Source of the DNA: Arthrobacter sp. Bi83
GTDB lineage: Bacteria > Actinomycetota > Actinomycetes > Actinomycetales > Micrococcaceae
Length of the DNA stretch: 32,000 bases
Assembly (NCBI RefSeq): GCF_918698095.1
Contig: NZ_CAKKLY010000020.1
Span: 1-32,000 of the forward strand
Direction of reading: 5' to 3'
Shown: positions 3,359 to 16,967 of the stretch, in pieces
How the letters are laid out: the number at the start of each line of letters is the position of its first letter
Position numbering within the stretch: position 1 is the first letter of the stretch
The notes under the pieces: model-generated
The model's input: the letters and a program-made list of their open reading frames with translations, nothing else
Database searches by the model: none
What the model was told of the DNA's origin: nothing
Made by a program: the position numbers and the translations under genes

Positions 3359-4117
3359 TCAGGGGTGGTCGCCGTATGCCGGGCCGTAGTGCACCACGAT
3401 GGTCCGGCGGCGCGTGTCATCGTCGGCATAGGTGACTGTGCTCAGCGGCACGCCGTAGAGGTCGGATAGCGCCGAGTCCGTGAGCAGCTCCGAAGCCTGA
3501 CCAGTCCGGGCGCCGCTGCGGCCCAGGAGGACCACGCGGTCTGCGAGCTGCAGGGCATGGTCGGGGTGGTGGGTGCTGAGCAGCAGGGCCATTCCGCCGG
3601 CCATCAGTTCGCGCAGGAGGGTCAGGACCCGGACCTGATTTTTCAGGTCAAGGCCCGTAGCGGGCTCGTCCAGCACCAGGACGGGGGAGCCGGATGCGAT
3701 CGCCCGCGCGATGAGAATCAGCTGTTGCTCGCCGCCGCTTAGGGTGGGGAACAACCGGTCCCGCAGGTCGCCGGCGCCCACGCGTTCCATCGCCTCCGCG
3801 GCAGCTGCCCGGTCCGCAGACCCCGGTGTCCGGAAGACACTTACATGCCTCGCCCGTCCCATCAGAACCATGTCCAGCGCGCGGTAGGCGAAGGCGCTGC
3901 CGTGGGCCTGCGGCACGTATCCGGCGCTTTCGGTGCGGCGGACCGTTCCCTCTGCCGGTGCGAGCAGCCCGGCGGCACAGCGCACCAGGGTGGTCTTGCC
4001 GCTGCCGTTGGGTCCGAGCACTGCGGTGGCCGTGCCGGCCGGCACCCGGAAACTGACGTTCCGAAACAGCCACTCCTTCGCCGTGTAGCCGAAGCCCACC
4101 CGCTCCAGTTCAAGCAC
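3359..4117 (-). CDS. ABC transporter ATP-binding protein (FecE/BtuD-like)
   Basis: Walker A GPNGSGKTT, signature LSGGEQQ, Walker B VLVLDEP, H-loop STHHPD. Start is placed at GTG 4117 (VLELERVGF...), overlapping the permease stop (4110-4112) by 8 nt. The longer ORF-track start at 4174 would add a non-conserved extension overlapping the permease. Confidence 0.9.
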   Translation of the reverse strand: MLELERVGFGYTAKEWLFRNVSFRVPAGTATAVLGPNGSGKTTLVRCAAGLLAPAEGTVRRTESAGYVPQAHGSAFAYRALDMVLMGRARHVSVFRTPGSADRAAAAEAMERVGAGDLRDRLFPTLSGGEQQLILIARAIASGSPVLVLDEPATGLDLKNQVRVLTLLRELMAGGMALLLSTHHPDHALQLADRVVLLGRSGARTGQASELLTDSALSDLYGVPLSTVTYADDDTRRRTIVVHYGPAYGDHP

Positions 4118-5249: not shown

Positions 5250-6390
5250 TGAACTGTTGGTAGTGGGCGGACCCGCCGTTTGCCTCAGTCCAGAGAATCT
5301 TATCCAGCTCCTTTGCCGTCAGCTCATGGTTGTAGAGGAACCGGAAGTATTCGGTGGCTTTGCCACGCAGCCCCGACTGCTGCCGAGGGAAGGCGATGTC
5401 GGCCAGCCAATGCCACATCAGCGGCGACTCCTGGCCGGGCGGGTCCCAGCGGTAGCCGCCGAGCGGCACCTTGTACACACGGCGGGTGCGCACCGCAGAA
5501 ACGTCCTTCCACACGGGATCGGAGTAGATGTCCTGGGGCATGGCCGCATCGAAGTTGCCCAGCAGGATCACCTCGGGGTCCCAGCGCAGGACCTGCTCGA
5601 CGTCGAGACCCACCATGCCGGACCCCGGCAGGGGATCGTTGCCGGTGGCTGGGTTGGTTGCCCCCACGAGCTTGATGTAGAAGTCGTTGTAGCTGTTGGC
5701 TGCAGCAACCTTCAGGCCGCCGGTGAAGCGGTTGAAGTAGAGAACGCTGGGGCCCTTGGTGCCGCGGCCGGCTGCCAGAGATTTGATCTCCGCCAGTTCC
5801 TGGTCGCTGCGGGCCTTGATTTCGGTGGCGCGTTCCGGTTTGCCGAGCATCGCGGCGAACAAGGTCACCCAGGCGTCCACGTCCTCCTGCCTGCCCGTGT
5901 TTTTCAGGCCGATCACCTGCAGGCCGGCCTTCTCCAGCGGTTCGATGAGTTGTTCATCCGACCACTGGATGACGACGTCGGGGTTCAGGGCGCGCACGCT
6001 CTCAACGTTCGCTGTGAAGTCCTGGGTGGCGATTTCATGCGGCAGGTCCAGGGTGCGGGGAAACATGGTGCCCATGATGCCGTCGCGCATCGCCACCCAA
6101 GACACATTGTGCATGGCGGCGAGATGGTCGGCGCTTCGGTCCACGGCCACGAGCAGCGATGCGGAGGGCATGGGGATGGTCACCACGCGGGTGACGGGCT
6201 GGGCGAACGTGAGGGTCTTGCCGCGCTGGTCGGTGACGCTGATGTTTTCCGCGCCGGCTTGGGTGCCGCTGCCGGAAGGGGACGACGGCGGTGCGGAGCC
6301 GGATGCGCCGCATCCCGCCAGAAGGGCTGCTGAACCTCCCGCCACAAACACCTGAAGGGCCGTGCGTCGGTTCAGATCGGCGACTCCCAT
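5239..6390 (-). CDS. ABC transporter substrate-binding lipoprotein (siderophore/corrinoid class)
   Basis: 383 aa. The N-terminus MGVADLNRRTALQVFVAGGSAALLAGC has a twin-arginine-like motif plus a lipobox (LAGC). The body resembles class III (FhuD/BtuF-like) binding proteins. A GGGGG Shine-Dalgarno-like run lies 6 nt upstream of ATG 6390. Confidence 0.85.
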   Translation of the reverse strand: MGVADLNRRTALQVFVAGGSAALLAGCGASGSAPPSSPSGSGTQAGAENISVTDQRGKTLTFAQPVTRVVTIPMPSASLLVAVDRSADHLAAMHNVSWVAMRDGIMGTMFPRTLDLPHEIATQDFTANVESVRALNPDVVIQWSDEQLIEPLEKAGLQVIGLKNTGRQEDVDAWVTLFAAMLGKPERATEIKARSDQELAEIKSLAAGRGTKGPSVLYFNRFTGGLKVAAANSYNDFYIKLVGATNPATGNDPLPGSGMVGLDVEQVLRWDPEVILLGNFDAAMPQDIYSDPVWKDVSAVRTRRVYKVPLGGYRWDPPGQESPLMWHWLADIAFPRQQSGLRGKATEYFRFLYNHELTAKELDKILWTEANGGSAHYQQFNAG

Positions 6391-6574
6391 GTCTGACCCC
6401 CTGAGCTCGGTTCTTCACAGCATCCGCTCGAACCGCATGGCTGTCAACGCTGCCCATCGCAGGCTTCCCATTCGCCGCTTGCCGGGTTGCGGGCTGTCCG
6501 GTACTTGCCTGCCACTTGTCGGTGACAGGGGCCGGTGTTACTTTCAGAGGACCCTTGCAGAAGGTGGCCAGCTG

Positions 6575-7348
6575 ATGGTTATCGACGGTGCCCAATTGTT
6601 TGTCCGCTATGCCTACCCGCCGAATTCGCGCGGCAGCTGCGGGCCCCCGGACAGTGACGCACTCCTTCACTACGGCCAGTCTGGCGTGACCGACGAGGGC
6701 CTGCGCGAATTGGCCAAGGGCTTCGCGGGGGCGTGGCCTTACCTGGAATTGATCGCCGGCTCCCATGGCATACCGGACCCGCTGGACGCCCGCGTCGTCG
6801 AGGCGTATTGGGTGGGCAACAGCCTGCTGGACTCCGTGGGCATCACCAACATCGGCAACTCCATGGAAGACCGCTTCCGTGCACGCACGGGCAGGCAGTT
6901 CCCGCACCTTGTGGAAGGCGTTCTGGCCGGCGGAGTACCGCACCACAGTTTCCATGTCTTCGAGATCTACCCGTGGTTGGGTCTGCTCCGCGATGACCGC
7001 CGGTACGCCACAGCGTTGCACGTGCTGGACCGGTGCCGGATCCGGTGGGGTGAGGTGCTGGCTGTCACCGGCGACGACGCAGTAGTGCGTACCTGGCCGC
7101 TGTCATGGGATGGAACGACGCTGGATGTGGGCGGCCCGGAGGTGGAGTCGGCCAAGTATGCCGTAAACGGCACCGGCTTCGTGGCGGGCCTCGCGGCAGG
7201 GGACGTGGTGTCACTCCACTGGGATTGGGTGTGCGACCGCCTCAGCCCGCATCAGCTGCAGCAGTTGAAGTACTTCACAGCCCGCCACCTCAAGATTGCG
7301 AACAGCGGCGTGGAGCACCGTGGCGCAGCAATAGCGCTGGAGCGGTAG
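6575..7348 (+). CDS. Conserved hypothetical protein, hydrogenase-neighbourhood family (recalled as DUF6390-like, unverified)
   Basis: 257 aa from ATG 6575, preceded by GAAGGTGG. The sequence begins MVIDGAQLFVRYAYPPNSRGSCGP, contains HHSFHVFEIYPW and ends near LHWDWVCDRL. High GC3. The ORF-track start at 6362 overlaps the divergent binding-protein gene and looks non-coding. Confidence 0.7.
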   Translation: MVIDGAQLFVRYAYPPNSRGSCGPPDSDALLHYGQSGVTDEGLRELAKGFAGAWPYLELIAGSHGIPDPLDARVVEAYWVGNSLLDSVGITNIGNSMEDRFRARTGRQFPHLVEGVLAGGVPHHSFHVFEIYPWLGLLRDDRRYATALHVLDRCRIRWGEVLAVTGDDAVVRTWPLSWDGTTLDVGGPEVESAKYAVNGTGFVAGLAAGDVVSLHWDWVCDRLSPHQLQQLKYFTARHLKIANSGVEHRGAAIALER

Positions 7349-7461
7349 AACTGCCTCAGCGTTGCGGATAGCACTGCGCCCGGCGTACAGCGCCCTGCGG
7401 CGGCAACCGGACGTAGGCATGGTCCGGACGTAGACATGGTCCTGGCGGCAGATGCCGAAAG

Positions 7462-7800
7462 CTATGGTGAGTGCGGCGCCGCGCCGTCCGTATCTTCTGG
7501 AGGCTTCACGCCGGTGGAACCGCGCGGAGACGACGTGCCGGTGGGACGCTCAGCCGGAGATTCGTCGGTGCCCGTGTGTTCGCGCCCGGCCTCCGTGCCC
7601 TCCTGTTTGAGCACGTCCTCACCCCGACGGGTGGTGCTCTCGCCGACACCTCGCGGTGGGGGAGCCGCGTCCTCGGGGGTTTCATCAGAGCCGGGGTGTG
7701 CCGGCTCCCTTAGCGGCGGTTCGCTGCCGAACGCGCGCGCCGTGCCCGGGGCTGTCCCTTCGGCCGGCTCGGTCGGAGTGGGTTCATCCGTGGGTGACAT
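7462..7800 (-). CDS. Acidic Pro/Glu/Thr-rich, probably disordered protein (hypothetical)
   Basis: ATG 7800 is preceded by GAGGAGAG. An alternative GTG at 7872 overlaps the hypC end. The translation is low complexity (MSPTDEPTPTEPAEGTAPG...). It is the last ORF of the hydrogenase operon. GC3 is only moderately high. Confidence 0.45.
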   Translation of the reverse strand: MSPTDEPTPTEPAEGTAPGTARAFGSEPPLREPAHPGSDETPEDAAPPPRGVGESTTRRGEDVLKQEGTEAGREHTGTDESPAERPTGTSSPRGSTGVKPPEDTDGAAPHSP

Positions 7801-7858
7801 CTTGCTCTCCTCGCTGTATTTGTGTTCGTCAGCCGCCTCCGGCTGCCCTGACCGGTTT

Positions 7859-8116
7859 CTAGGGGGTATCACCTTCGGGTTCTCTGGGGCGACCCATCAG
7901 TTCCAGGCCGGTCATTGCCCGTTCGGCGCCTGCGTCGTCGACCCGCTCCAGGGCGAAACCCATGTGGATGAGAACCCAGCTGCCCGGCGCCAGCGGGCCG
8001 TCGTCGAGAAGTCCGATATTGATTTTCCGCCGCACACCGGCCACATCAACGAGGGCGAGCTGACCGCCGTAGCCCTCCACGAGCTCAATGACCTGGCCTG
8101 GTATTCCGAGACACAT
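7859..8116 (-). CDS. hypC: Hydrogenase maturation chaperone HypC/HupF family
   Basis: 85 aa starting MCLGIPGQVIEL, the canonical N-terminal Cys2 motif. Located 13 nt downstream of the endopeptidase stop. Confidence 0.9.
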   Translation of the reverse strand: MCLGIPGQVIELVEGYGGQLALVDVAGVRRKINIGLLDDGPLAPGSWVLIHMGFALERVDDAGAERAMTGLELMGRPREPEGDTP

Positions 8117-8129
8117 GACCGCTACCGCC

Positions 8130-8723
8130 TTAGGTTCTGATGGAAGAGTGCCGGACACTGTGCCGGGCAACGAGCGAGCCGACGGCTTCCACTGCCCGCG
8201 GAACGGCGGCCGCAACCGTGGCGGAGAGGCCGAGGCCTTCTGTCACGTCCGCGGGAACGCAGCCCACCACATAAGTGAGGGGCAGCTCTCCGCCGAGGGA
8301 CCGGAGGCGGCCAAGGACGGCTACCGGGTCCATGCCATGCGGGTCGAGGGAAGCGGCGCCGTCCAGATCCTCGCTACGTACATGCAGAACCCGGATGCTT
8401 CCCGGGGCTGACTCCGAAGGCGGTTCGCGTGCCGCTGACGGGTCCGGGTCCGCTGGTCCCGCTGCGTGCAGGTGCCCGTCAGGCGGCACCGCATCCACGA
8501 GCACCAAAACGTCCACGCCGCCCAGCAGGTCGTAGGCCAGATGCATGCCCCGAATGCCGTAGTCGACCACCGTTACGCCCGGCATCGGCAGGGCTGCCTC
8601 CGCGGCCAGCCTCCGTGCGACCTCCGGACCGAACCCGTCGTCACGCAGGAAGATGTTGCCCACTCCGGCCACGAGGACACGGACCGCGGGGGAGGTGGTG
8701 GGGGGCTGGATGCCGGACGTCAC
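8130..8723 (-). CDS. hupD: Hydrogenase maturation endopeptidase (HupD/HyaD/HybD family)
   Basis: Contains VLVAGVGNIFLRDDGFGPEVA (GxGNxxxxDDGxG) and DPHGMDP. Start is assigned to GTG 8723, which forms a GTGA overlap with the upstream micro-ORF stop. The longer ORF-track version to 9053 overlaps two upstream genes. Confidence 0.85.
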   Translation of the reverse strand: MTSGIQPPTTSPAVRVLVAGVGNIFLRDDGFGPEVARRLAAEAALPMPGVTVVDYGIRGMHLAYDLLGGVDVLVLVDAVPPDGHLHAAGPADPDPSAAREPPSESAPGSIRVLHVRSEDLDGAASLDPHGMDPVAVLGRLRSLGGELPLTYVVGCVPADVTEGLGLSATVAAAVPRAVEAVGSLVARHSVRHSSIRT

Positions 8724-8839
8724 ATCCGGCGCACCTTCATGTAGCGCTGGATGTCCGGGACGGAGCGAAGCCCCACGTAAACAGCGCCGAGGGCTACCGC
8801 CGCGAGAACCCAAACGGTGGCCATTCCTACAATTCTCAT
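8720..8839 (-). CDS. 39-aa single-pass membrane micro-protein (absent from the ORF track)
   Basis: Hand translation gives MRIVGMATVWVLAAVALGAVYVGLRSVPDIQRYMKVRRM*. ATG 8839 forms an ATGA overlap with the upstream gene stop (8836-8838). Its TGA (8720-8722) forms a GTGA overlap with the endopeptidase start. GGAAAGGAAGG lies 6 nt upstream. One hydrophobic helix is followed by a basic tail. Confidence 0.7.
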   Translation of the reverse strand: MRIVGMATVWVLAAVALGAVYVGLRSVPDIQRYMKVRRM

Positions 8840-10332
8840 CGCGGGCCTTCCTTTCCATCCTGATCCTGAAACCGGGGACTTGTTCCGGGCGGCATGGGTT
8901 CCAACGGTTCAAGTTCTTCCGGCGCGTAGTAGAAGGACCTGCCGTAACCCTCATGGAGGTCCGCAGCCGGGTCCTGCTCGAGCACCAAGCCAACGTGGGT
9001 GCTGCCATCGACGTCGAAGTGGACGCTCGTGACGCGCCCCGTTTGCCCGGCAAAAAACAGATCCTGGGCGTCCGCCCGCCGGGTGGGATTCACCCTGACC
9101 CGGCTGCCGCGCGACACCGGGACCCCGTTGATCAGGACCGCGTCTTTGTCCGGCTGGACACTGGCGTCCGCCTCGGGGTCCCACCACGGTCTATCACCGG
9201 CGGTCTCATCGCCGGGTGTGGCGTAAAGCGGCGGCCCGTCCGACGGCGGACGGCCCTCCGGCGCAGGGCCCGGGTCACCCAGCGCACGGGGATTACGCAG
9301 GATGCCATGCAGTTGCTGCAGTTCCTCGGCGGACATCGCTTCGCAGCGGTCGATGATCGCCGCCGCACGCGGATCCGTGGCACGGGCTTCCGCTTTTTCC
9401 TCCTCCGTCAGGGTCAGCACCCGCAGCGTGAGGATCTCGTCGATCTCGGTGGAGTCATACAGTGCCACCGAACTTTCCGGCGCTACCGCAGGATGGTCGT
9501 AGAGAATGATGGGGGAAACAAGAAGTACGTCCGTCTGGCCTTCCGGACCGGCCAGCACAGGCCAGCAGCGGTGCTGGGAGCACTCCGAGGCGGCATCCTG
9601 TGCGTCCTGGGGCGGCTCGAGCAGGGAGAGGAAATCCCCGTCCCTCAGGTCCAACAGCAGGTGGGTACCGATGAACGATGCGGCGATGGCGCTGTGACTG
9701 TTGCCCCGCCCGCGGACGTCCGATGCTGCGAAGTCCGTGGCCGTGTTCGCCGCCGACACCCGAAGCCGCACCAGCCGGCCGGTGACGGCGGTGGTTTCAA
9801 GCCTGACTTCACCCCGGAGTGCCCGGCGGCGGCGTACCAGCCGTCCGGCGGACTGCCCCGTCGGCCTTCCCCTGCCGTCGGTAAGTTCCTCGATGTCCTG
9901 GCCTGCCGGGACCTCCACCGGCACGATCAGCGGTGAGTCGGCCCCCGTCAGCTGCGAGAGCGGAAAGGGCCCCAGGGTTATGTCCTGTTCCACTGCCTCA
10001 TCCCAGCTGATCCAGTGAGCGGTACCGATGGTGAGCTCATCCACCGGACTGAACCCGCCGCCGTCGTCCGCTTTTTCCGCGGTGCGCGTCTGAAGCTGCA
10101 GGAAGCGCAGATGCACTTCCACCTCGGCCTGCGGCCCGCGGCTCAGCAGGCAGTCGGCGTACATGCCGGGTTCTTCCCCGGCACCCGAGTCCGCCGCACC
10201 CGGCGGGCCGAGGATGCCAAACTGCCAGCGCGCCTGGTTCTTCTGCGACGAGGCGCGGTAGGGGTACAACAGGTAACCCTCGTAAAGGACGGCATCCGCC
10301 ACCGCCCTGGCAAGGCTCAGACTCATGTTCAT
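8836..10332 (-). CDS. Conserved hypothetical protein, 498 aa, hydrogenase-operon associated
   Basis: ATG 10332 (MNMSLSLARAVADAVLYEGYLLYPYRASSQKNQARWQFGILGP...) forms an ATGA overlap with the upstream stop (10329-10331). High GC3. I recognise no catalytic motif. The ORF-track start at 10455 adds an Arg/Gly-rich extension overlapping the upstream gene. Confidence 0.8.
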   Translation of the reverse strand: MNMSLSLARAVADAVLYEGYLLYPYRASSQKNQARWQFGILGPPGAADSGAGEEPGMYADCLLSRGPQAEVEVHLRFLQLQTRTAEKADDGGGFSPVDELTIGTAHWISWDEAVEQDITLGPFPLSQLTGADSPLIVPVEVPAGQDIEELTDGRGRPTGQSAGRLVRRRRALRGEVRLETTAVTGRLVRLRVSAANTATDFAASDVRGRGNSHSAIAASFIGTHLLLDLRDGDFLSLLEPPQDAQDAASECSQHRCWPVLAGPEGQTDVLLVSPIILYDHPAVAPESSVALYDSTEIDEILTLRVLTLTEEEKAEARATDPRAAAIIDRCEAMSAEELQQLHGILRNPRALGDPGPAPEGRPPSDGPPLYATPGDETAGDRPWWDPEADASVQPDKDAVLINGVPVSRGSRVRVNPTRRADAQDLFFAGQTGRVTSVHFDVDGSTHVGLVLEQDPAADLHEGYGRSFYYAPEELEPLEPMPPGTSPRFQDQDGKEGPR

Positions 10333-11030
10333 GGGACCAGGCTTCCTGCCACACCGTCTCCGGCCGCGCCGTCGCCCGGCACCCGGGCGGCCGCGCCGTC
10401 GCCCGGCACCCGGGCGGCTGCAGTAGCCAGCAGGCTTTCGACGGCGGCATCCCACGATGTGAGGCCGCGTGCGGACTTGTACTGCGCCAGGGCGGCCAGC
10501 ACGTCCCGGTCCAGCCGGACCCAGCCGGCATTCGGGAAATACTGGTCCATCAGCCGGCGCCAGGCATCCACAGGCAGCCGGTAGGAAGCCTCGCGGTCCC
10601 AGGGCACTTGTTCTACGCCGAACCCCGTCTGCCCCTTGGTGAAGACGGTGCCGGAGAACAGCAGCTCCAGCGGAATTTCGCCCTCGCGGAGGGCATGCAG
10701 GTACTTGGCCGCGGCAACGTCGAAGTCAAAGGTGCAGGGCAGCGGCAGGTCGAATTCGGTGCTCCCCGTGAAGCCCTGCACCATGGTGCTGCATTGCATC
10801 CAGAGGAAGGACTTGAGGGTTGTGGGCCACCGGCCGCGGCCGCCGAAAAGGTCGAGCAGCCCTTGCTCTTCTTCGTCCGCGTACCCGCGGCGCTGCGGGA
10901 GAATGCGGACCTGGCACCGCAGGGCGATGGCGTGCACGGCGGCCCCGGTGACCTCGGTCAGCCGCAGCCGGGCTGTAAGTTGTGGTGCCGCCGCGTACGG
11001 CTCGGGCCGGATATCAACGACGGCGAACAT
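10329..11030 (-). CDS. Conserved hypothetical protein (recalled as DUF6084-like, unverified)
   Basis: 233 aa from ATG 11030 (MFAVVDIRPEPYAAAPQLTARLRL...), 8 nt after the upstream stop (11039-11041). The C-terminus carries a perfect 27-bp tandem duplication (AARVPGDGA twice). Confidence 0.8.
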   Translation of the reverse strand: MFAVVDIRPEPYAAAPQLTARLRLTEVTGAAVHAIALRCQVRILPQRRGYADEEEQGLLDLFGGRGRWPTTLKSFLWMQCSTMVQGFTGSTEFDLPLPCTFDFDVAAAKYLHALREGEIPLELLFSGTVFTKGQTGFGVEQVPWDREASYRLPVDAWRRLMDQYFPNAGWVRLDRDVLAALAQYKSARGLTSWDAAVESLLATAAARVPGDGAAARVPGDGAAGDGVAGSLVP

Positions 11031-11038
11031 CAGCTCGG

Positions 11039-11722
11039 TCACGGGAGGCCTCCGGGCACGGGTTTGCTGCGGCTGCTGATCCGGCTGAAGAACGCGGCGA
11101 GCTGGTCGCGGGCCTCCTGGCCGCCGTCGAAACCCCGCCAGCGGCGGCGGAGCTGGCCGACCAGTTCGTAGCACGCGTCGACGGGGACAAGGTGGCAGTC
11201 TGCCTGCGGTTGCGTGGGCCCGGGACCGCGGATCAGGAGGGCTTCGGTGTCCGGGGCGGCCAGGGACAGCGCGGGATTGCGCGCGAGCACGGCGTCCCAG
11301 GCGTCCAACGGCAGCTCCGATTCGGTGGCCCCGGCGGGCCCGGGGTAGAAGGCGACGGTCCGGTCAAGCCTGGAGCTGCGGAAGAAGAAGGCCAGGCCCA
11401 CCGGAATTTCCAGTTCATCCCACTGTCCCGGGCCCAGCTCGAAGTCGGGAAAGGAGAAGTATCTGTCCGGTACCGAGCGGTAGCGGAGGTGGGCGTTGCT
11501 GTCGGTGAAGAGGAGATAGCAGGGGCGGCAGGTGCACATCATGGCGTGGCTCTCGAGGTCCACCACGTGCTGGTGCACGTCCGCGATGGGCTCACCGCAC
11601 ATCTCGCAGCGTTCACCGGGCGGGCCTGCAGGACGGCTGGCGGAGATCCTGCGGAGCAGGGCCACCGGCAGGCCGCCCGAACTGCCGGCGCCGACAGGCC
11701 GGGTCAGCCGCCCGGTCCCCAT
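11039..11722 (-). CDS. Conserved hypothetical Cys-motif protein (recalled as DUF5947-like, unverified)
   Basis: 227 aa. ATG 11722 lies 1 nt after the hhyE-like stop (11724-11726). Contains CEMCGEP...(18 aa)...CTCRPC, suggesting a metal-binding or zinc-ribbon-like site. Confidence 0.8.
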   Translation of the reverse strand: MGTGRLTRPVGAGSSGGLPVALLRRISASRPAGPPGERCEMCGEPIADVHQHVVDLESHAMMCTCRPCYLLFTDSNAHLRYRSVPDRYFSFPDFELGPGQWDELEIPVGLAFFFRSSRLDRTVAFYPGPAGATESELPLDAWDAVLARNPALSLAAPDTEALLIRGPGPTQPQADCHLVPVDACYELVGQLRRRWRGFDGGQEARDQLAAFFSRISSRSKPVPGGLP

Positions 11723-11723
11723 C

Positions 11724-12716
11724 TCAGCCGCCCTGCCCGGAGGCGACGGGTTCGGCGGCGCCCTGCCCGGAGGTGGCGGGTCCGGAAGTGGCCGGTACGG
11801 CGACGGACATCACGCCGCCCCGGACCAGCAGGGGCAACGGCTCCAGGTGCAGGTTCCTGTCCTCGAGGCACGCACCGGCCTGCCTGACATCGAAATGGCC
11901 GCGGCAGGTCGGGCAGCGCAGCAAACCTCCGCCAACTGGCGCCGCGAGGGCACGCTGCAGCGCCGCTCCCGCCATCGAACCGGTGCAGCGCGGGCAATAG
12001 TCGCGGTAGGCGTACACGTCCTGGCCGGTCCGGCAGGCCAGCACCGGGTAGCCGCCGACGAGGAAGCCCGCAACGTCGCCGGGTTCCAGCCCGGCGATCT
12101 CGGGGACAGGTTCCCAGGAACCGCCGGGAAGGTCCCGCCAGCCATGCCCGGCTGTTGCCTCCGCGGGATGGTTCATCCGCACCAGCAGCGCATCCACCGG
12201 GATCAACGCAGGCGTGGCAGCCTGCTTCTCCTGCTCGACGACCTCGATGGCCGTCACCTCCGGCGCGGCGGATTCAATCGCCTCCTCGACGGCGAACTTG
12301 AGCGTGACGGACGACGACGGGCAGCCCTGGCAGGTGCCGAGCAGCTTCAGCCGCACCACGCCCTCCGGGCTGATATCCATCAGTTCGACGTCACCGCCAT
12401 GGGACCCAAGATACGGCCGGACGCTGTCCAGCGCCGCGGCTACACGGGCTTCCATGGACTGCGGATGCAGCCCGTGGATCACCAGCAGGCTGGACACGAG
12501 GTCGTCGGATGTCAGCGCCGCGAGGGTGCCGTCGTCGAGTTTTCCGCGTTCGTCGAGGATTTCCAGCATCCGTTCCAGACCCGAGCCGTACAGGTCCGTC
12601 ACCTCGCGGACCAGGTCCTCGGCGCGCTCGCGGGCAACTGCGCCGCCGGCGCCGAGGGCGTCGAGGAGGGTGCCGATCCGGTCGCCCGTCTGCCGCGGCC
12701 GGTCCCCGCCGTGCAT
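11724..12716 (-). CDS. hhyE: NifU-C-domain / 4-Cys fusion protein, putative hydrogenase electron-transfer or Fe-S protein (HhyE-like)
   Basis: 330 aa. Contains the NifU C-terminal-like motif LLGTCQGCPSSSVTLK and a C-terminal module with CPRC...(27 aa)...CPTCRGH. Starts 5 nt after the hhyL stop. Confidence 0.75.
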   Translation of the reverse strand: MHGGDRPRQTGDRIGTLLDALGAGGAVARERAEDLVREVTDLYGSGLERMLEILDERGKLDDGTLAALTSDDLVSSLLVIHGLHPQSMEARVAAALDSVRPYLGSHGGDVELMDISPEGVVRLKLLGTCQGCPSSSVTLKFAVEEAIESAAPEVTAIEVVEQEKQAATPALIPVDALLVRMNHPAEATAGHGWRDLPGGSWEPVPEIAGLEPGDVAGFLVGGYPVLACRTGQDVYAYRDYCPRCTGSMAGAALQRALAAPVGGGLLRCPTCRGHFDVRQAGACLEDRNLHLEPLPLLVRGGVMSVAVPATSGPATSGQGAAEPVASGQGG

Positions 12717-12721
12717 GGCCG

Positions 12722-14518
12722 TTACTCGCCGGTCAGGGTCTGGGTGGGTGAGTGCATCGTCTCAAGTGTTTGGCCGTTGCCCAGATACATGTGGACGCCG
12801 CAGGGGAGGCACGGGTCAAAGCTGCGGACGGTGCGCATGATGTCGATGCCTTTGAAGTGTTCCCGGTCGTTCTCCTCGAAGATCGGCTGACCCTGCACGG
12901 CATCCTCGTATGGGCCGGCCACGCCCGCCGAGTCTGTGGGGCTGGCGTTCCACGGCGTGGGCGGGTAGGGATGGTAGTTGGCGATCTTGCCGTCGCGGAT
13001 CACCATGTGGTGCGACAGGACGCCGCGCACAGCCTCGGTGAAGCCGCAGCTGATTGCTTCGTCCGGGACCTCGAAGGTTTCCCAGGTCTTGGTGTGGCCG
13101 GCGCGGATTTCCTCCAGTGCCTTTTCCGCGAAGTGCAGCGCGGCTGCGGCGGCATACGCCTGGAAGTAGGTGCGGGCCCGGTTGCGCTCCAGCGTGTTGC
13201 TCCACTGCGGGATGTTCCACTCGAAGGAAACAGGACCCTTCAGCGCGGTCTTGGGCAGGTTGATCTGGACGCTCGTGCCGGTGGACTTGATGTAGCCGAT
13301 GTCCACCAGCCCGGCCAGCGCCGTTGCCCAGAGGCGCGCCAGCGGCCCGCCGCCGGTGTCCAGCGCCAGGTTGTTCTGGCCGTCAAACCAGCGCGGGGAC
13401 ATGACCCAGCTGTACTTTTCCGCGAGGTCCCGCTTCTGCGGCCGCGGATTGGTGTGCTGGTTCCAGGGATGCCGCCGGTCCACCGGGTTGCCCAGTGGAT
13501 CGTGGGTCACGAACATCTCCTGGTCTTCCCAGTCCTCGTAGTAGGAGGAGCCAAGCATGATCCGGATGCCCAGGTTGATCCGCACCAGGTCCGTGGTGAC
13601 CAGGTTGCCGTCCACCACGACGCCCGGGGTGACGAACATCTTCCGGCCCCATTCGGTCATGTCCTTGTACTCGAAATTGCAGTAGTCGGGGTCCTGGAGC
13701 GAGCCCCAGCAGCCCAGCAGCGTGCGCCGCAGCCCCACCTGTTCGTACCCCGGCAGCGCCTCGTAGAAGAAGTCGAAAAGGTCGTCATGCATGGGGACGA
13801 CTTTCTTCATGAACTCCACGTACCGCATGAGCCGCGTGATGTAGTCCGTCATCAGCTGGATGGTGGCAACTGTACCCACGCCGCCCGGGTAGAGCGTGGA
13901 AGGGTGCACGTGGCGCCCCTCCATGAGGCAGAACATTTCGCGGGTTGCCCGGCTGACCTGCAGCGCCTCCCGGTAGAACTCGCCGGTGAAGGGGTTCAGC
14001 GAGCGCATGATGTCGGCGATGGTCCGGTAGCCGTGCTCGCCCTCGTGCGGTGCCCGGGTGTTTTCCGCCTTGGCCAGGACGCCGGGGTTGGTCTCGGACA
14101 CCATCTTTTCGCAGTAGTCCACGCCCACCAGGTTTTCCTGGAAGATGTTGTGGTCGAACATGTACTCAGCCGCTTCGCCCAGGTTCACTATCCACTCACC
14201 CAGGTTTGGCGGCTTCACCCCGTACGCCATGTTCTGCGCATAGCAGGAACAGGTGGCGTGGTTGTCCCCGCAAATTCCGCAGATGCGGCTGGTGATGAAA
14301 TGGGCGTCCCGGGGGTCCTTGCCCTTCATGAAGATGGAGTAGCCCCGGAAGATCGAGGACGTGCTCTTGCACTCCACCACCTGGTTGTTCGCGAAATCGA
14401 TCTTGGTGTAGATGCCGAGGCTGCCGACGATCCTCGTGATCGGGTCCCAGGCCATCTCCACCAGGTTGTTGTTGTTGTCCGCGCCGCTCCGGGAAGGCAT
14501 TGGAATCGTGGAGGTCAT
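12722..14518 (-). CDS. hhyL: [NiFe]-hydrogenase large subunit, group 1h (formerly group 5) high-affinity type
   Basis: 598 aa. N-terminal metal-binding motif TSRICGICGDNH and C-terminal SFDPCLPCGVH, followed by a 22-aa extension (MYLGNGQ...TGE) of the kind removed by the endopeptidase. Confidence 0.93.
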   Translation of the reverse strand: MTSTIPMPSRSGADNNNNLVEMAWDPITRIVGSLGIYTKIDFANNQVVECKSTSSIFRGYSIFMKGKDPRDAHFITSRICGICGDNHATCSCYAQNMAYGVKPPNLGEWIVNLGEAAEYMFDHNIFQENLVGVDYCEKMVSETNPGVLAKAENTRAPHEGEHGYRTIADIMRSLNPFTGEFYREALQVSRATREMFCLMEGRHVHPSTLYPGGVGTVATIQLMTDYITRLMRYVEFMKKVVPMHDDLFDFFYEALPGYEQVGLRRTLLGCWGSLQDPDYCNFEYKDMTEWGRKMFVTPGVVVDGNLVTTDLVRINLGIRIMLGSSYYEDWEDQEMFVTHDPLGNPVDRRHPWNQHTNPRPQKRDLAEKYSWVMSPRWFDGQNNLALDTGGGPLARLWATALAGLVDIGYIKSTGTSVQINLPKTALKGPVSFEWNIPQWSNTLERNRARTYFQAYAAAAALHFAEKALEEIRAGHTKTWETFEVPDEAISCGFTEAVRGVLSHHMVIRDGKIANYHPYPPTPWNASPTDSAGVAGPYEDAVQGQPIFEENDREHFKGIDIMRTVRSFDPCLPCGVHMYLGNGQTLETMHSPTQTLTGE

Positions 14519-14545: not shown

Positions 14546-15604
14546 TTACCAGGTGCGCTGCGCGCCGGTAAGGAGCTCGCGTCCGGGCCGGCGCCATTTC
14601 GGCTCCTGGTCCAGGGTGTGGGTGGTGATGCCGCGCAACGCCCGGATGGCGGATCCGTAAGGCCGGATGGTGTTGGTGGAGAGTTTTCCGCCCGGAGGCT
14701 CGTCCATGAAGGGCATGAACTTGTCCGGGAAGCCGGGCATAGTGCAGCCGATGCAGATGCCGCCGACGTTCGGGCAGCCGCCGATGCCGTTCATCCAGCC
14801 CCGCTTCGGTACGTTGCACTTGACCACCGGGCCCCAGCAGCCGAGTTTGACGATGCACTTGGGGGAGCCGTATTCGGTGGCGAAGTCGCCCTGCTCGTAG
14901 TACCCGGCACGGTCGCAGCCCTCGTGGACTGTCTTGCCGAACAGCCAGGTGGGCCGGAGCGCGTCGTCCAGCGGAATCATCGGTGCCTGGCCAGTGGCCT
15001 GGTACAGCAGGTAAGTCATGGTCTCGGAGAGATTGTCCGGCTGGATCGGGCAGCCCGGGACGCAGACAATCGGGATGCCTGCCTTCGATCTCCAGTCATA
15101 GCCGAGGTAGTCCGGGACTCCCATGGCGCCTGTTGGGTTCCCCGCCATCGCGTGGATCCCGCCGTACGTGGCGCACGTGCCGGCCGCAATGATTGCGGTG
15201 GCTTTCGGCGCCAGGCGGTCCAGCCATTCGCTCGTGGTGATGGGCTGGCCCGTCTCGAGATCGTTGCCGAACCCGCACCAGTAGCCGCCGGGGTCGTGGA
15301 GTTTTTCGTTGGGGATGGACCCCTCGACCACCAGGACGAACGGTTCCAGTTCCCCACGGTCCGCCTTGCGGAACCACTCCAGGAAGTCGTCGGCTCCTTC
15401 CTGGGGTCCGCACTCGAAGTCGATCAGGGGCCAGTGCATGGCAATCCGCGGCAGACCGGGCAGGGCGCCGAGGGCGATCTCTTCGACGCTGGGCTGTGTG
15501 GCCGCCGTCAAGGCAACTGAATCGCCGTCGCAGCTAAGTCCGGCGTTGATCCACAGCACGTGAATAAGGGCTTCTTCGGCCTTGATGGATGCTTCGGTAG
15601 GCAT
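14546..15604 (-). CDS. hhyS: [NiFe]-hydrogenase small subunit, group 1h, no Tat signal
   Basis: Contains LSCDGDS, GTCATYGG, VPGCPIQPDN, KLGCWGPVVKCNVP and CPNVGGICIGC. ATG 15604 is preceded by GAAAGAGG. The ORF-track TTG 15637 overlaps the hypB stop and is less likely. The N-terminus has no RRxFxK twin-arginine motif. Confidence 0.92.
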   Translation of the reverse strand: MPTEASIKAEEALIHVLWINAGLSCDGDSVALTAATQPSVEEIALGALPGLPRIAMHWPLIDFECGPQEGADDFLEWFRKADRGELEPFVLVVEGSIPNEKLHDPGGYWCGFGNDLETGQPITTSEWLDRLAPKATAIIAAGTCATYGGIHAMAGNPTGAMGVPDYLGYDWRSKAGIPIVCVPGCPIQPDNLSETMTYLLYQATGQAPMIPLDDALRPTWLFGKTVHEGCDRAGYYEQGDFATEYGSPKCIVKLGCWGPVVKCNVPKRGWMNGIGGCPNVGGICIGCTMPGFPDKFMPFMDEPPGGKLSTNTIRPYGSAIRALRGITTHTLDQEPKWRRPGRELLTGAQRTW

Positions 15605-15633
15605 CGGTGCCTCTTTCGGTGGCCCGTGAGGGC

Positions 15634-16518
15634 TCAATGTGCGTCTGTCAGAGATTCAGTCAAGGGGTCTGACCGGGATGTCGAACCGTCCAACCAGCCG
15701 TACCAGGCAGCCAGGCCTTCGCCGGTGGCGGCCGAGACGGTCAGGAATTCGGCCCGCGGGTTGACCTGCCGGATGCGGCGCAGGCACTCGTCGACGTCGA
15801 AATCGACATAGGGGAGCAGGTCCGACTTGTTGACGATCACGAGGTCGGCTGCCATGAACATGTGCGGGTATTTCTGCGGTTTGTCATCACCTTCCGTTAC
15901 CGAAACGACCACGACCTTGGCAGTTTCGCCAAGGTCGAAAAGAGCTGGGCAAACGAGGTTGCCCACGTTTTCAATAAAGACTGTGGAGCCGGTTTCCGGG
16001 TCCAGGGCGTCCAGTCCGCGCCGGAGCATGTCGGCATCGAGATGGCAGCCGGCCCCGGTGTTGATCTGGATGACCGGACGGCCCACTGCGCGGATCCGGT
16101 CAGCATCCAGGGACGTTTCCTGGTCCCCTTCAATGACGCCGGCCTGCAAGTGCTCGCCCAGGTCCGTGAGCGTGCGGACCAGGAGCGTTGTCTTGCCGGC
16201 GCCGGGCGAACTCATGACGTTGAAGGCCCGGATTCCGCGGCCGGCAAGCCAGCCGCGATTCCTTGCCGCCAGCAGGTCATTCTTGGCCAGCAGGTTCTGT
16301 TCGAGTGAGATGGTCTCAGGGTGGCAGAGGGCATGCTGATGGCCGGGGTGTTCGTGCTCGTGGCCATGCTCATGCTCGTGCTCGTGCTCGTGCTCGCGTT
16401 CGTGCTCGTGGCTGTGCCCGTGCTGATGCGGATGCTCATGCCCGTGGGTGTGGTGGGGTTCCTCGAGGGTTGAGACCCTGGTGTTCGCCTCATCGCCGCA
16501 GCCGCATGTTGTACACAT
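15634..16518 (-). CDS. hypB: Hydrogenase nickel-incorporation GTPase HypB with His-rich tract
   Basis: N-terminal MCTTCGCG (CxxCGC high-affinity Ni site) and a roughly 45-aa His/Glu-rich tract. P-loop SSPGAGKTTLL; also ENVGNLVCP and the NKSD G4 motif. Confidence 0.95.
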   Translation of the reverse strand: MCTTCGCGDEANTRVSTLEEPHHTHGHEHPHQHGHSHEHEREHEHEHEHEHGHEHEHPGHQHALCHPETISLEQNLLAKNDLLAARNRGWLAGRGIRAFNVMSSPGAGKTTLLVRTLTDLGEHLQAGVIEGDQETSLDADRIRAVGRPVIQINTGAGCHLDADMLRRGLDALDPETGSTVFIENVGNLVCPALFDLGETAKVVVVSVTEGDDKPQKYPHMFMAADLVIVNKSDLLPYVDFDVDECLRRIRQVNPRAEFLTVSAATGEGLAAWYGWLDGSTSRSDPLTESLTDAH

Positions 16519-16851: not shown

Positions 16852-16967
16852 GGCGGCACTCCTTCCTGCCAAGATAGGCTCGCCGCGGATAAAGCGCAAC
16901 CATCCAAAATGACTCCGGCGTATACTTCCGCTACATAGCGAAGTCATCCCAGCAGTCTGCATCGCAT

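What the first reader, a model, noticed from the sequence alone, without database searches (positions are those of the whole stretch)
8720..11722. Block of four translationally coupled genes of unknown function inside the high-affinity hydrogenase operon
Four ORFs lie between the HhyE-like Fe-S protein and the maturation endopeptidase: 227 aa, 233 aa, 498 aa and 39 aa. Their junctions are a 1-nt gap (11722/11724), an 8-nt gap (11030/11039), an ATGA overlap (10329-10332), an ATGA overlap (8836-8839) and a GTGA overlap (8720-8723). That pattern argues for co-translation and fixed stoichiometry with the enzyme. Only the first shows an obvious cofactor motif (CEMC...CTCRPC). I recognise no catalytic signature in any of them. 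From memory, equivalents occur next to group 1h/5 hydrogenases in other Actinobacteria and Acidobacteria, as 'hha' or DUF-type conserved hypotheticals, with no experimentally assigned role. This enzyme class lacks a Tat signal, a cytochrome b partner and the HoxOQRTV-type helpers of other O2-tolerant hydrogenases. The block is therefore a candidate dedicated accessory module. Possible roles are aerobic Fe-S or NiFe maturation, or tethering and electron delivery to the menaquinone pool.
Basis: partly seen in the sequence, partly recalled or inferred. Interest (0 to 1): 0.75.

Follow-up and report, generated by a model that had tools for sequence, protein, structure and literature searches.

The report
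Hydrogenase helper genes of unknown function
Four small overlapping genes sit inside the operon for an air-tolerant, hydrogen-scavenging enzyme; they are real, widely conserved and still uncharacterised, and natural gene fusions link them to the enzyme's maturation protease, which suggests they help build the enzyme rather than form part of it.

Summary
Four minus-strand genes lie between hhyE and the hupD endopeptidase of a group 1h [NiFe]-hydrogenase operon. One correction: gene B most likely starts at GTG 11042 (237 aa, GTGA overlap), not ATG 11030.

A is Pfam DUF5947, B is DUF6084 and D is DUF6893. C has no Pfam model but about 4,400 relatives at 50% clustering. The block equals the literature's "hhaABC" conserved hypotheticals plus an overlooked 39-aa membrane microprotein. 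Gene order is identical in 80 actinobacterial loci and in Cupriavidus, Methylocystis and Streptomyces plasmids.

New evidence:
- Natural fusions HhyE::A, B::C and C::HupD tie all of them to the maturation protease.
- A has nine invariant candidate ligand residues (six Cys, two His, one Asp).
- B models as an Ig-like sandwich.
- C models as a beta-rich core plus an SH3-like domain.
- None resembles an enzyme or a known Hox/Hya helper.
- D is one transmembrane helix with a basic, conserved tail.

Best reading (about 0.45): a dedicated assembly and maturation module for the cytoplasmic, air-matured enzyme, with D as membrane tether. The main rival (about 0.25) is that they are electron-transfer or tether subunits of the mature enzyme. 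The block is a known unknown and no function has been tested.

The parts
11039..11722 (-). Gene A (HhaA-type, 227 aa), Pfam DUF5947. A soluble protein with a zinc-ribbon-like Cys/His-rich N-terminal motif.
   Evidence: PF19372 E 4.7e-73. Orthologue of the C. necator gene annotated 'DUF5947 family protein'. Maximum 19-residue hydropathy 0.79, so no TM helix.
11519..11608 (-). Metal-binding motif of A, residues 39-68: C-x2-C-x7-H-x-H-x10-C-x-C-x2-C.
   Evidence: C39, C42, H50, H52, C63, C65 and C68 are invariant in 35 sequences spanning Actinomycetota and Alpha- and Betaproteobacteria and at least 97% conserved in 79 sequences. Members give weak recurring hits to C4 zinc-finger and metal-binding domains: zf-dskA_traR, ATPase-cat_bd, Rhodanese_C.
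11171..11179 (-). Second invariant pair in A, D182-x-C184. A possible extra ligand pair.
   Evidence: Invariant in alignment A3.
10329..11042 (-). Gene B (HhaB-type), Pfam DUF6084. Revised start GTG 11042 gives 237 aa. Modelled as an Ig-like beta-sandwich with helical inserts. The tail after residue 213 has pLDDT below 50 and is probably disordered.
   Evidence: PF19562 E 3.9e-97, profile 1-210 aligned to residues 1-210. GGAGG lies 6 nt upstream. The 4-nt A/B overlap is conserved in 61 of 76 loci. AF2 pLDDT 75. Foldseek hits to Kir cytoplasmic Ig-like domain, ApaG, TMEM106B lumenal domain and GH3 FnIII domain have probability 0.99-1.0 but TM only 0.25-0.5. Conserved residues are mainly Arg, Trp, Phe and Tyr, with no conserved Cys or His site.
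8836..10332 (-). Gene C (HhaC-type, 498 aa). No Pfam or NCBIfam family, yet a very large family.
   Evidence: No hits. More than 8,000 homologues, all named 'hypothetical'. 4,382 representative clusters at E <= 1e-3.
10204..10320 (-). C residues 5-43: near-invariant N-terminal motif (LYEGYLLYPYRAS..KN..RWQFG) that AF2 models with low confidence. A candidate partner-binding segment.
   Evidence: Invariant columns. pLDDT below 50 for residues 19-36.
9517..10203 (-). C residues 44-272: confidently modelled beta-rich core.
   Evidence: pLDDT about 85-95. Foldseek gives E 1.4e-4 to DrmA (7s9v_A) but TM only 0.19. The PADLOC DrmA HMM gives E 0.04 for residues 66-289. No functional inference is possible from this.
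9295..9516 (-). C residues 273-346: the most conserved segment (SPIILYDHP..APES...DSTEIDEILTLR..T..EK.EAR.TD.RA), helical and modelled with low confidence.
   Evidence: Weak Phage_TAC_7 (tail assembly chaperone) hits in 38 of 42 closely related members, best E 6e-4.
8905..9186 (-). C residues 383-476: SH3-like beta-barrel domain following a variable linker.
   Evidence: Foldseek hits to PetP (7r0w_V: TM 0.78 normalised to target, rmsd 2.3 A, probability 1.0; also 2n5u). Weak sequence hit to the CarS SH3-like domain 2kss, E 0.033.
8720..8839 (-). Gene D (39 aa), Pfam DUF6893. A single-pass membrane microprotein.
   Evidence: PF21833 at 47.1 bits against a cut-off of 24.6. Present in all 78 related loci that hold C and hupD. 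Length is 39 aa in 78 of 79 loci and an SD-like site is present in 79 of 79. 1,233 clusters, almost all 39-40 aa, named 'DUF6893 family small protein' by NCBI. Found in the same operon context in Streptomyces and Nocardia.
8777..8833 (-). D residues 3-21: the hydrophobic transmembrane segment IVGMATVWVLAAVALGAVY.
   Evidence: Mean Kyte-Doolittle hydropathy 2.12 over 19 residues.
8723..8767 (-). D residues 25-39: conserved basic tail RSVPDIQRYMKVRRM. The 18-residue segment after the TM core carries five positive and one negative charge. It is inferred to be cytoplasmic by the positive-inside rule.
   Evidence: D, R, Y and the terminal M are invariant and P and R nearly so. Charge count. The terminal Met is kept even where the next gene does not overlap (L089).
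8130..8723 (-). hupD-type maturation endopeptidase (197 aa, GTG start overlapping D's stop). Context and functional partner.
   Evidence: TIGR00072 E 2.3e-30 and Pfam HycI. Found fused to the C-terminus of C in 7 of the top 150 representative clusters of the C family.
11724..12716 (-). hhyE (330 aa): NifU-like domain with C129-x2-C132 plus a C-terminal Rieske-like fold carrying CPRC241 and CPTC268. Context and functional partner of A.
   Evidence: Pfam NifU E 1.3e-22 and Rieske_2 E 1.5e-4. Cys positions. Found fused to A in L090/L091.
12722..14518 (-). hhyL, the group 1h large subunit with a 22-residue C-terminal extension after the CGVH motif.
   Evidence: L1 and L2 motifs and C-terminus. Its only PDB sequence match is 5AA5 HofG, 1064 bits.
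14546..15637 (-). hhyS, the small subunit, with no Tat motif.
   Evidence: Pfam Oxidored_q6 and NiFe_hyd_SSU_C. N-terminus shown.
7859..8116 (-). hypC, the last gene of the operon in this window.
   Evidence: Pfam HupF_HypC E 1e-21.

Best explanation
A, B and C, together with HhyE and the HupD endopeptidase, form one dedicated cytoplasmic assembly and maturation module for the group 1h hydrogenase.

This enzyme is folded and loaded with cofactors in air. It has no Tat signal and none of the HoxO/Q/R/T/V- or HyaE/F-type helpers.

Proposed roles:
- A is the metal-binding member. It has a zinc-ribbon-type Cys4 site plus an invariant His-x-His/Cys/Asp set. It works with the Nfu-like HhyE on cofactor or metal handling.
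- B (Ig-like sandwich) and C (beta core, conserved helical segment, SH3-like domain) are non-catalytic scaffold or adaptor proteins. They hold the precursor subunits and present pre-HhyL to HupD for removal of its 22-residue C-terminal extension.
- D is a single-pass membrane microprotein. Its basic cytoplasmic tail docks the module, or the finished enzyme, at the inner face of the membrane.

Shown here: the gene structure, the conservation, the fusions, the ligand-type residues, the predicted folds and the TM segment.

Inferred only: that these proteins bind the precursors, which metal A binds, and what D tethers.
For: 1. Rosetta-stone fusions were found in independent assemblies.
- C::HupD proteins of 606-682 aa carry a complete protease domain, starting (R/V)LVAG(I/V)GNxFLGDDGFG, directly after C. 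They make up 7 of the top 150 representative clusters. One comes from an Acidimicrobiaceae MAG and from JGI metagenomes with identical length.
- A B::C protein of 765 aa has 28 cluster members across NCBI, ENA, Logan and JGI.
- An HhyE::A protein of 375 aa is confirmed by blastp on both halves.
- All of these sit in hhySL operons. The only partner with a known activity, HupD, is a maturation enzyme.

2. The chain of 4-nt overlaps runs hhyE-A-B-C-D-hupD here. It is conserved at hhyE/A, A/B and B/C. The structural pair hhyS/hhyL is not coupled in related loci.

3. No PDB chain is homologous to A, B or C. The PDB sequence set includes 5AA5, the C. necator group 1h structure found with HhyL. That organism's operon encodes all three proteins. 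The 5AA5 large-subunit chain is 579 residues against a 603-residue gene product, as expected after C-terminal processing.

4. B and C have binding-type folds, not enzyme or redox folds, and no conserved Cys/His site.

5. A to C diverge at the rate of maturation proteins. Median identity to mycobacterial-type loci is A 59%, B 59% and C 54%. For comparison, HupD is 50%, HypB 56% and HypC 64%, while HhyS and HhyL are 85-86%.

6. The position matches that of accessory genes in classical operons, between the structural genes and the endopeptidase/hyp genes (established knowledge of hoxKGZ-MLOQRTV and hyaABC-DEF).

7. The field now cites the HucE/HhyE work under 'additional assembly and maturation proteins' (PMC10657181). 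Purified Huc contains HucS, HucL and HucM only (PMC10017518).

8. For D: it has a TM segment and a basic tail. It is always adjacent to hupD, before it here and after it in L089/L090. [quoted passage not shown]
Against: - There is no experiment on any of the four proteins.
- Fusion to HupD shows functional linkage, not which step is served.
- HhyE, the fusion partner of A, co-migrates with HhyL and HhyS on native gels and was proposed as an electron acceptor (PMC6883350).
- A's Cys/His set could bind an Fe-S cluster. Its C. necator homologue PHG067 was proposed as the electron acceptor (PMC6883350, citing Schafer 2013).
- A membrane anchor (D) and an SH3-like domain resembling PetP, a peripheral subunit of a membrane redox complex, would also fit a structural tether.
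- In some lineages D is followed by a YceI-like, putatively polyisoprenoid-binding protein. That points to quinone coupling rather than maturation for D.
- Verrucomicrobial group 1h enzymes appear to function without the block (PMC5364354, PMC6688271), so it is not a general requirement of the enzyme class.
- Both AF2 models are only moderate (pLDDT 70 and 75) and were built from shallow alignments. Only Foldseek against the PDB could be run, and TM-scores for B and for the core of C are low.
Confidence: 0.45

Rival explanations
1. A to D are genuine subunits or the physiological redox partner of the mature enzyme. A (Fe-S) accepts electrons from HhyS, possibly via HhyE. B and C are structural scaffold. 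D anchors the complex in the membrane, so electrons reach menaquinone. This would be the functional equivalent of the cytochrome b subunit of group 1d enzymes or of HucM in Huc.
For: - Invariant Cys/His set in A.
- PHG067/MSMEG_2717 was proposed as an electron acceptor (PMC6883350).
- D has a TM helix and Hhy is membrane-associated without a known anchor (10.1101/769216).
- PetP-like SH3 domain in C.
- A YceI-like gene follows D in L089/L090.
- Tight coupling to hhyE, whose deletion reduces H2 oxidation (PMC6883350).
- hhaABC transcripts rise 5.5-fold in T. roseum, between the structural genes (12.6-fold) and the maturation genes (3.1-fold) (PMC6776052).
Against: - C is fused to the maturation protease in several lineages and B is fused to C. 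A permanent structural subunit fused to a protease that acts once is hard to rationalise.
- No homologue of A, B or C is in the PDB sequence set, which includes the C. necator structure 5AA5.
- B and C have no cofactor-type conserved residues.
- A's motif matches zinc-ribbon-type domains rather than any Fe-S family.
- D is absent from the C. necator, Methylocystis and S. fungicidicus operons, which keep A to C.
- Sequence divergence is like that of maturation factors.
Confidence: 0.25
2. Split roles. A to C (with HhyE and HupD) are maturation factors, but D has nothing to do with maturation. It is the membrane dock or quinone-site partner of the finished enzyme, working with the extra C-terminal domain of long HhyE or with YceI-like proteins.
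For: - D is lineage-restricted while A to C are not.
- D co-occurs with long HhyE in 71 of 71 loci and is absent with short HhyE in 4 of 4 loci.
- In a third lineage D is followed by cytoplasmic YceI-like proteins.
Against: - D is always adjacent to hupD and usually close to it. Gaps are 30 nt or less in 46 of 62 loci, and 13 of 62 overlap by 1 or 4 nt.
- L089 breaks the link between long HhyE and D, because it has a short HhyE together with D.
- There is no direct evidence for any partner.
Confidence: 0.15
3. The proteins stabilise or protect the finished enzyme during dormancy or desiccation (spores, starved cells) rather than building it or wiring it.
For: - Hhy is a persistence-phase enzyme (10.1101/769216).
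- One of many Ig-like Foldseek hits for B is a LEA14/WHy-type protein, 1yyc.
Against: - The LEA hit is one generic beta-sandwich match among hundreds.
- The fusions to HupD and HhyE are not explained.
- The block is present in non-sporulating autotrophs such as C. necator.
Confidence: 0.05

Closest known systems
hhaABC / PHG067-PHG069 (C. necator pHG1) / MSMEG_2717-2715 (M. smegmatis) / trd_1876-1874 (T. roseum): the 'conserved hypothetical' genes of group 1h (formerly group 5) hydrogenase operons
   Same: Same families and same order. C. necator pHG1 has small subunit, large subunit, NifU-like, DUF5947, DUF6084, hypothetical (476 aa) and protease, all overlapping by 1-8 nt. Identity to the window proteins is 42%, 43% and 35%. 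The window block is an orthologue of this set.
   Different: The window and its actinobacterial clade add the 39-aa DUF6893 gene and a long HhyE with an extra Cys4 Rieske-like domain. C. necator, Methylocystis and S. fungicidicus lack both. None of these genes has an experimentally assigned function.
HoxM-L-O-Q-R-T-V / HyaD-E-F / HupD-F-G-H-I-J-K accessory sets of O2-tolerant group 1d membrane-bound hydrogenases
   Same: Same operon logic. Enzyme-specific helper genes sit between the structural genes and the hyp genes, next to the specific endopeptidase. The proposed roles are also alike: subunit chaperones, a Cys-rich metalloprotein (HoxR rubredoxin) and a scaffold.
   Different: No sequence or profile similarity. 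A to D match none of the corresponding Pfam or NCBIfam models. Group 1d helpers serve Tat export, which group 1h lacks.
HypA (Ni metallochaperone with a Zn(Cys)4 site) as an analogue for A
   Same: Both are small proteins with two Cys knuckles plus a separate His-containing candidate site, encoded in a hydrogenase cluster.
   Different: hhalign probability against the window's own HypA is below 1%. A bona fide hypA is already present at 16522-16962. A has five clustered Cys plus H-x-H and a distal D-x-C.
HucM and HucE of the group 2a Huc hydrogenase
   Same: Both are operon-encoded extra proteins of an atmospheric-H2 oxidiser. HucM gives membrane association and quinone access. HucE is the paralogue of HhyE and is not part of purified Huc (PMC10017518, PMC6883350).
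   Different: HucM is a 189-residue coiled-coil tube former and D is a 39-aa TM helix. No homology between them was tested here. A, B and C have no described Huc counterparts.
PetP, the SH3-fold peripheral subunit of cyanobacterial cytochrome b6f
   Same: The C-terminal domain of C superposes on PetP (TM 0.78 normalised to PetP, rmsd 2.3 A).
   Different: Only 14-19% identity and no Pfam match. The SH3 fold is generic. This is a resemblance of fold, not evidence of shared function.

Membership tests
Pfam DUF5947 (PF19372) | Whole-protein score above the curated gathering cut-off (25 bits) | tested here: met
   A scores 245 bits, E 4.7e-73, covering profile positions 1-176 of 177.
Pfam DUF6084 (PF19562) | Whole-protein score above the curated gathering cut-off (25 bits) | tested here: met
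   B scores 324.4 bits, E 3.9e-97, covering profile positions 1-210 of 213.
Pfam DUF6893 (PF21833), 'DUF6893 family small protein' | Score above the cut-off (24.6 bits); a protein of about 39 aa with one hydrophobic helix and a PDxxRY-type tail | tested here: met
   D scores 47.1 bits. Length, TM segment and tail are shown.
hhaABC block of group 1h/5 hydrogenase operons (defined by synteny in the literature) | Located downstream of hhyS-hhyL(-hhyE) and upstream of the specific endopeptidase | tested here: met
   Window order. Identical order in 80 loci and in C. necator, Methylocystis and S. fungicidicus.
hhaABC block of group 1h/5 hydrogenase operons | The adjacent large subunit is group 1h (L1 TSRICGICGDNH, L2 SFDPCLPCGVH) | tested here: met
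   Both motifs are present in HhyL. The motifs are as given in PMC5364354. The only PDB sequence match is 5AA5 HofG.
HoxO/HyaE, HoxQ/HyaF/HupH, HoxT/HupJ, HoxV/HupK helper families | Match to the family's Pfam or NCBIfam profile | tested here: not met
   No such hit for A to D at E <= 0.01, nor for A to C against Pfam at E <= 10.
Rubredoxin (HoxR/HupI type), considered for A | Rubredoxin profile match; two CxxCG-type knuckles about 29 residues apart binding Fe | tested here: not met
   No rubredoxin hit. A has CxxCG and CxCxxC 20 residues apart. Metal identity cannot be tested here.
HypA-type Ni metallochaperone, considered for A | HypA profile or profile-profile similarity | tested here: not met
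   No PF01155 hit. hhalign of A3 against the window HypA gives probability 0.6%.
Fe-S electron-transfer protein, the role proposed for PHG067/MSMEG_2717 | Binds a redox-active Fe-S cluster and accepts electrons from HhyS | not testable with these tools
   Only the ligand-type residues can be shown. Weak profile hits point to C4 zinc-finger-type domains.
SH3-like / PetP-like domain, considered for the C-terminal domain of C | SH3-type beta-barrel fold | tested here: met
   Foldseek to 7r0w_V: probability 1.0, TM 0.78 normalised to target, rmsd 2.3 A over 73 columns. This is a fold-level match on a predicted model only. There is no sequence-family membership.
DrmA (DISARM) N-terminal region, considered for the core of C | Significant profile or structural match | tested here: inconclusive
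   PADLOC DrmA HMM E 0.04 for residues 66-289. Foldseek E 1.4e-4 but TM 0.19 and rmsd 21 A. No function is described for that region (PMC9142583).
HucM-type scaffold or quinone tube, considered for D | Homology to HucM; tetrameric amphipathic coiled coil | not tested
D is far shorter (39 aa against 189 aa; PMC10017518).

The most novel reading that the evidence does not exclude
HhyE, A, B, C and HupD constitute a previously unrecognised, self-contained maturation machine that replaced the Tat-linked HoxOQRTV-type helpers in cytoplasmic, air-assembled group 1h hydrogenases. The overlooked 39-aa DUF6893 microprotein is the missing membrane anchor, which would explain why Hhy is membrane-associated although no subunit has a transmembrane segment.
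Probability: 0.3. Interest if true: 0.75.

Novelty: new member of a known kind. Interest (0 to 1): 0.55.

Why it matters
Group 1h hydrogenases are a main biological sink for atmospheric H2 and are wanted as air-stable catalysts. Two questions remain open. How is the enzyme assembled in air without the known helpers? How does it reach the membrane and the quinone pool?

These four genes are the obvious candidates, and they are probably needed for heterologous production.

The fusions give a concrete, testable wiring: HhyE with A, B with C, and C with HupD. The 39-aa membrane protein gives a specific candidate for the unexplained membrane association. C is also a family of about 4,400 clusters with no Pfam model.

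Tried and rejected
- **PDB by sequence.** Searches with A, B, C and a 35-sequence profile of A gave only chance-level hits: TFIIIA and telomere zinc fingers, and CarS.
- **Profile-profile comparisons.** B vs C, A vs HypA and A vs HhyE showed no relationship.
- **PADLOC.** The scan gave only a marginal DrmA hit for C. A defence-system reading is rejected because synteny with hhySL is strict.
- **'D occurs only with long HhyE'.** This looked perfect (71/71 and 4/4) but is broken by L089, which has a short HhyE plus D.
- **D as an ORF-calling artefact.** Rejected, because length, motif, SD site and Pfam model are all conserved.
- **YceI-like genes near D.** Looked for in the window and in the 80 loci; none were found.
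- **Other scans of the window.** Promoter and terminator scans found nothing above shuffle expectation inside the block, and Rfam and tRNA scans found nothing.
- **Direct search with D.** An alignment was used instead.
- **Literature.** Searches for the DUF names, PHG06x and MSMEG_271x tags, and Hhy structure or purification found no functional study of these proteins up to mid-2026.

Full report
**What is there**

The window is high-GC DNA (about 0.63-0.72) from an Arthrobacter-like actinobacterium. HhyL and HhyS are 96-97% identical to Arthrobacter sp. ISL-72. C is 100% identical to a JGI metagenome protein and 73-76% identical to named Arthrobacter and Pseudarthrobacter proteins.

On the minus strand lies one gene string: hypA (16962-16522), hypB, hhyS, hhyL, hhyE, A, B, C, D, hupD and hypC (8116-7859). 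A divergent nickel transporter gene nicO lies at 16968-18119. HhyL carries the group 1h L1 and L2 motifs and a 22-residue extension after CGVH. HhyS has no twin-arginine motif.

**Check of the observation**

The four ORFs and their junctions are as described, with one correction. B's reading frame has a GTG at 11042 that overlaps A's stop (GTGA) and has GGAGG 6 nt upstream. The DUF6084 profile aligns from residue 1 of that 237-aa form. A 4-nt A/B overlap is the rule in relatives, in 61 of 76 loci. So every junction from A to hupD is an overlap, and hhyE/A is separated by a single nucleotide.

The overlaps are conserved at B/C (59 of 79 loci) and hhyE/A (39 of 74). The hhyS/hhyL junction is not coupled in related loci, and hhyL/hhyE has a short gap. 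No terminator-like site above shuffle expectation interrupts the block.

**Identity of the proteins**

- A is Pfam DUF5947, B is DUF6084 and D is DUF6893, all far above the curated cut-offs.
- C matches nothing in Pfam or NCBIfam. It nevertheless has more than 8,000 homologues, all named 'hypothetical', and 4,382 representative clusters at 50% identity.
- No PDB chain is homologous to A, B or C.
- None matches a HoxO/Q/R/T/V-, HyaE/F- or rubredoxin-type model.

The literature knows the block as the conserved hypotheticals hhaABC (PMC6776052). MSMEG_2717 is noted as a homologue of C. necator PHG067, a 'proposed electron acceptor' (PMC6883350). A 2026 comparative paper still lists them as hypothetical proteins (PMC13332983). 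I found no functional study.

**Conservation**

A scan of one genome per species found at least 589 loci encoding C. The 80 best are Actinomycetota plus one MAG labelled Sericytochromatia. All show hypB-hhyS-hhyL-hhyE-A-B-C-(D)-hupD-hypC wherever the contig reaches.

The same order occurs on C. necator pHG1, a Methylocystis parvus plasmid and a Streptomyces fungicidicus plasmid, with a short NifU-like HhyE and without D.

The block is not universal. Verrucomicrobial methanotrophs have hhyS-hhyL-hupD contiguous and no hhyE anywhere (PMC5364354, PMC6688271). S. cattleya pSCAT has a rearranged cluster with no detectable B in the 17-kb stretch examined.

**Anatomy of A**

A has nine invariant ligand-type residues across Actinomycetota and Alpha- and Betaproteobacteria: C39, C42, H50, H52, C63, C65, C68, D182 and C184. 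Weak recurring profile hits go to C4 zinc-finger and metal-binding domains. It is not related to the window's HypA or HhyE.

**Anatomy of B**

The AF2 model has pLDDT 75. It is an Ig-like beta-sandwich with helical inserts. Foldseek finds only generic sandwich domains. Its conserved residues are Arg, Trp, Phe and Tyr, not Cys or His.

**Anatomy of C**

The AF2 model has pLDDT 70.

- It has a confident beta-rich core at residues 44-272.
- It has an SH3-like C-terminal domain that superposes on PetP.
- Two near-invariant segments, residues 5-43 and 273-346, are modelled poorly. I read them as candidate partner-binding regions, which is an inference.
- The core gives a marginal, unexplained match to the N-terminal region of DrmA.

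**Anatomy of D**

D is 39 aa in 78 of 79 loci. It has a 19-residue hydrophobic segment and an invariant basic tail of the form PDxxRYxKxRxM. An SD-like site precedes its start in all 79 loci. In the window that site lies within the last codons of C (G-K-E-G), a motif that recurs at the C-terminus of many C homologues. NCBI names relatives 'DUF6893 family small protein'. Streptomyces and Nocardia copies are in the same operon position.

**The decisive new evidence: natural fusions**

Long members of the C family turned out to be fusions.

- **C::HupD.** The complete protease domain follows C directly. This occurs in 7 of the top 150 representative clusters and in independent assemblies with identical lengths.
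- **B::C.** A 765-aa protein with 28 cluster members from four sources.
- **HhyE::A.** In the operon that carries B::C, hhyE and A are one 375-aa gene.
- **Context.** All of these sit in hhySL operons.

In those lineages D (34 aa) comes directly after hupD and is followed by a cytoplasmic YceI-like protein (PF04264). So HhyE, A, B, C and HupD are linked pairwise by fusion into one functional module. The only member with known chemistry is a maturation enzyme.

**Mechanism**

I commit, at about 0.45, to a dedicated assembly and maturation module.

- A with HhyE handles a metal or cofactor.
- B and C scaffold the precursors and present pre-HhyL to HupD.
- D tethers the module or the product to the membrane.

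Support comes from five sources:

- The fusions described above.
- The coupling pattern, which includes hupD but not hhyS/hhyL.
- The absence of any homologue of A, B or C from the PDB sequence set. That set includes 5AA5, the C. necator group 1h structure, whose large-subunit chain is C-terminally shortened (579 against 603 residues).
- The non-enzymatic folds of B and C.
- Divergence rates like those of HupD, HypB and HypC rather than HhyS and HhyL.

The field has also shifted to citing HucE/HhyE as assembly factors (PMC10657181). HucE is absent from purified Huc (PMC10017518).

The main rival, at about 0.25, is that they are electron-transfer or tether subunits. It is supported by A's Cys/His set, the TM helix of D, the PetP-like domain, the YceI neighbour, and HhyE co-migrating with HhySL (PMC6883350). 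A split model, with A to C in maturation and D in docking or quinone coupling, gets about 0.15. A protective role in dormancy gets about 0.05.

**Novelty and interest**

The block is an orthologue of a known but uncharacterised gene set. It is therefore a new member of a known kind, not a new kind. Specialists know these genes exist.

What is added here:

- The corrected start of B.
- Recognition of D as a conserved membrane microprotein, in an enzyme described as membrane-associated without TM regions (10.1101/769216).
- The fusion network tying the block to HupD.
- The ligand set of A.
- Fold assignments for B and C.
- The size of the unmodelled C family.

Nothing has been tested experimentally. 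Interest is 0.55.

Noticed in passing
window 6362-7348 (+): An ORF with Pfam DUF6390 (E 1e-88) lies convergent to the hydrogenase operon. tblastn finds it beside the cluster in 62 of the 84 loci held at that point. It follows hypE on the same strand in Streptomyces (L085-L087). This is another hydrogenase-linked protein of unknown function.
   Followed up: partly
L089 8935-9565; L090 4252-4873: In lineages with C::HupD or B::C fusions, the DUF6893 microprotein (34 aa) comes after hupD. It is followed by a YceI-like protein (PF04264) of 170-173 aa with no obvious signal peptide at its N-terminus. This is a possible quinone or isoprenoid-binding partner of group 1h hydrogenases. No YceI-like gene is present in the window or in the 80 actinobacterial loci.
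   Followed up: partly
window 11724-12716 (-), hhyE: The C-terminal 'Rieske-like' domain of HhyE has CPRC241 and CPTC268, which is Cys4 rather than the Cys2His2 of true Rieske centres. C. necator HhyE (192 aa) lacks even the NifU CxxC motif. Fe-S binding therefore cannot be the universal role of HhyE.
   Followed up: partly
window 1-32000: hypD, hypE and hypF are not in this window. After hypC come a DUF6390 gene, an iron-siderophore-type ABC transporter (3359-6390) and PEP carboxylase (101-2950). The rest of the maturation set must lie elsewhere in the genome.
   Followed up: no
L083 (S. cattleya pSCAT) 6000-14200: The cluster is rearranged: hupD, hypB, C, an unidentified 181-aa ORF, hhyS, hhyL, hhyE, A. 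No B is detectable in 17 kb. This is an exception to the otherwise fixed order.
   Followed up: partly
L081, L082, L084 (RefSeq annotations): The group 1h small subunit is annotated 'hydrogenase expression protein HypE' in C. necator, Methylocystis and Streptomyces records. The R. equi paper PMC13332983 notes the same. This is a systematic misannotation.
   Followed up: no
window 9517-10203 (-), C residues 44-272: A marginal but two-method similarity of the beta-rich core of C to the N-terminal region of the DISARM helicase DrmA (Foldseek E 1.4e-4 with TM 0.19; PADLOC HMM E 0.04). It is unexplained and possibly a shared ancient fold.
   Followed up: partly
window 9295-9516 (-), C residues 273-346: Weak Pfam Phage_TAC_7 (phage tail assembly chaperone) hits to the conserved helical segment in 38 of 42 closely related members, best E 6e-4. 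All are below the gathering score.
   Followed up: no
window 7462-7872 (-): A 136-aa ORF directly after hypC with a Pro/Glu-rich low-complexity N-terminus. It is conserved only in 5 close Arthrobacter loci and has no Pfam hit. Similar acidic low-complexity ORFs fill an extra insert of about 550 nt between D and hupD in about 7 other loci (for example L015 11456-12104).
   Followed up: partly
P0006; L023: Actinobacterial-type copies of C are labelled 'Burkholderia sp. RS01' (75% identity to C) and 'Candidatus Sericytochromatia' MAG (55%). These are likely contamination or mis-binning, or possibly recent transfer.
   Followed up: no
window 15600-15637 (-): The longest hhyS ORF starts at TTG 15637, overlapping the hypB stop (15634). 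An ATG eleven codons downstream (MPTEASIK...) is an alternative start. This was not resolved.
   Followed up: no
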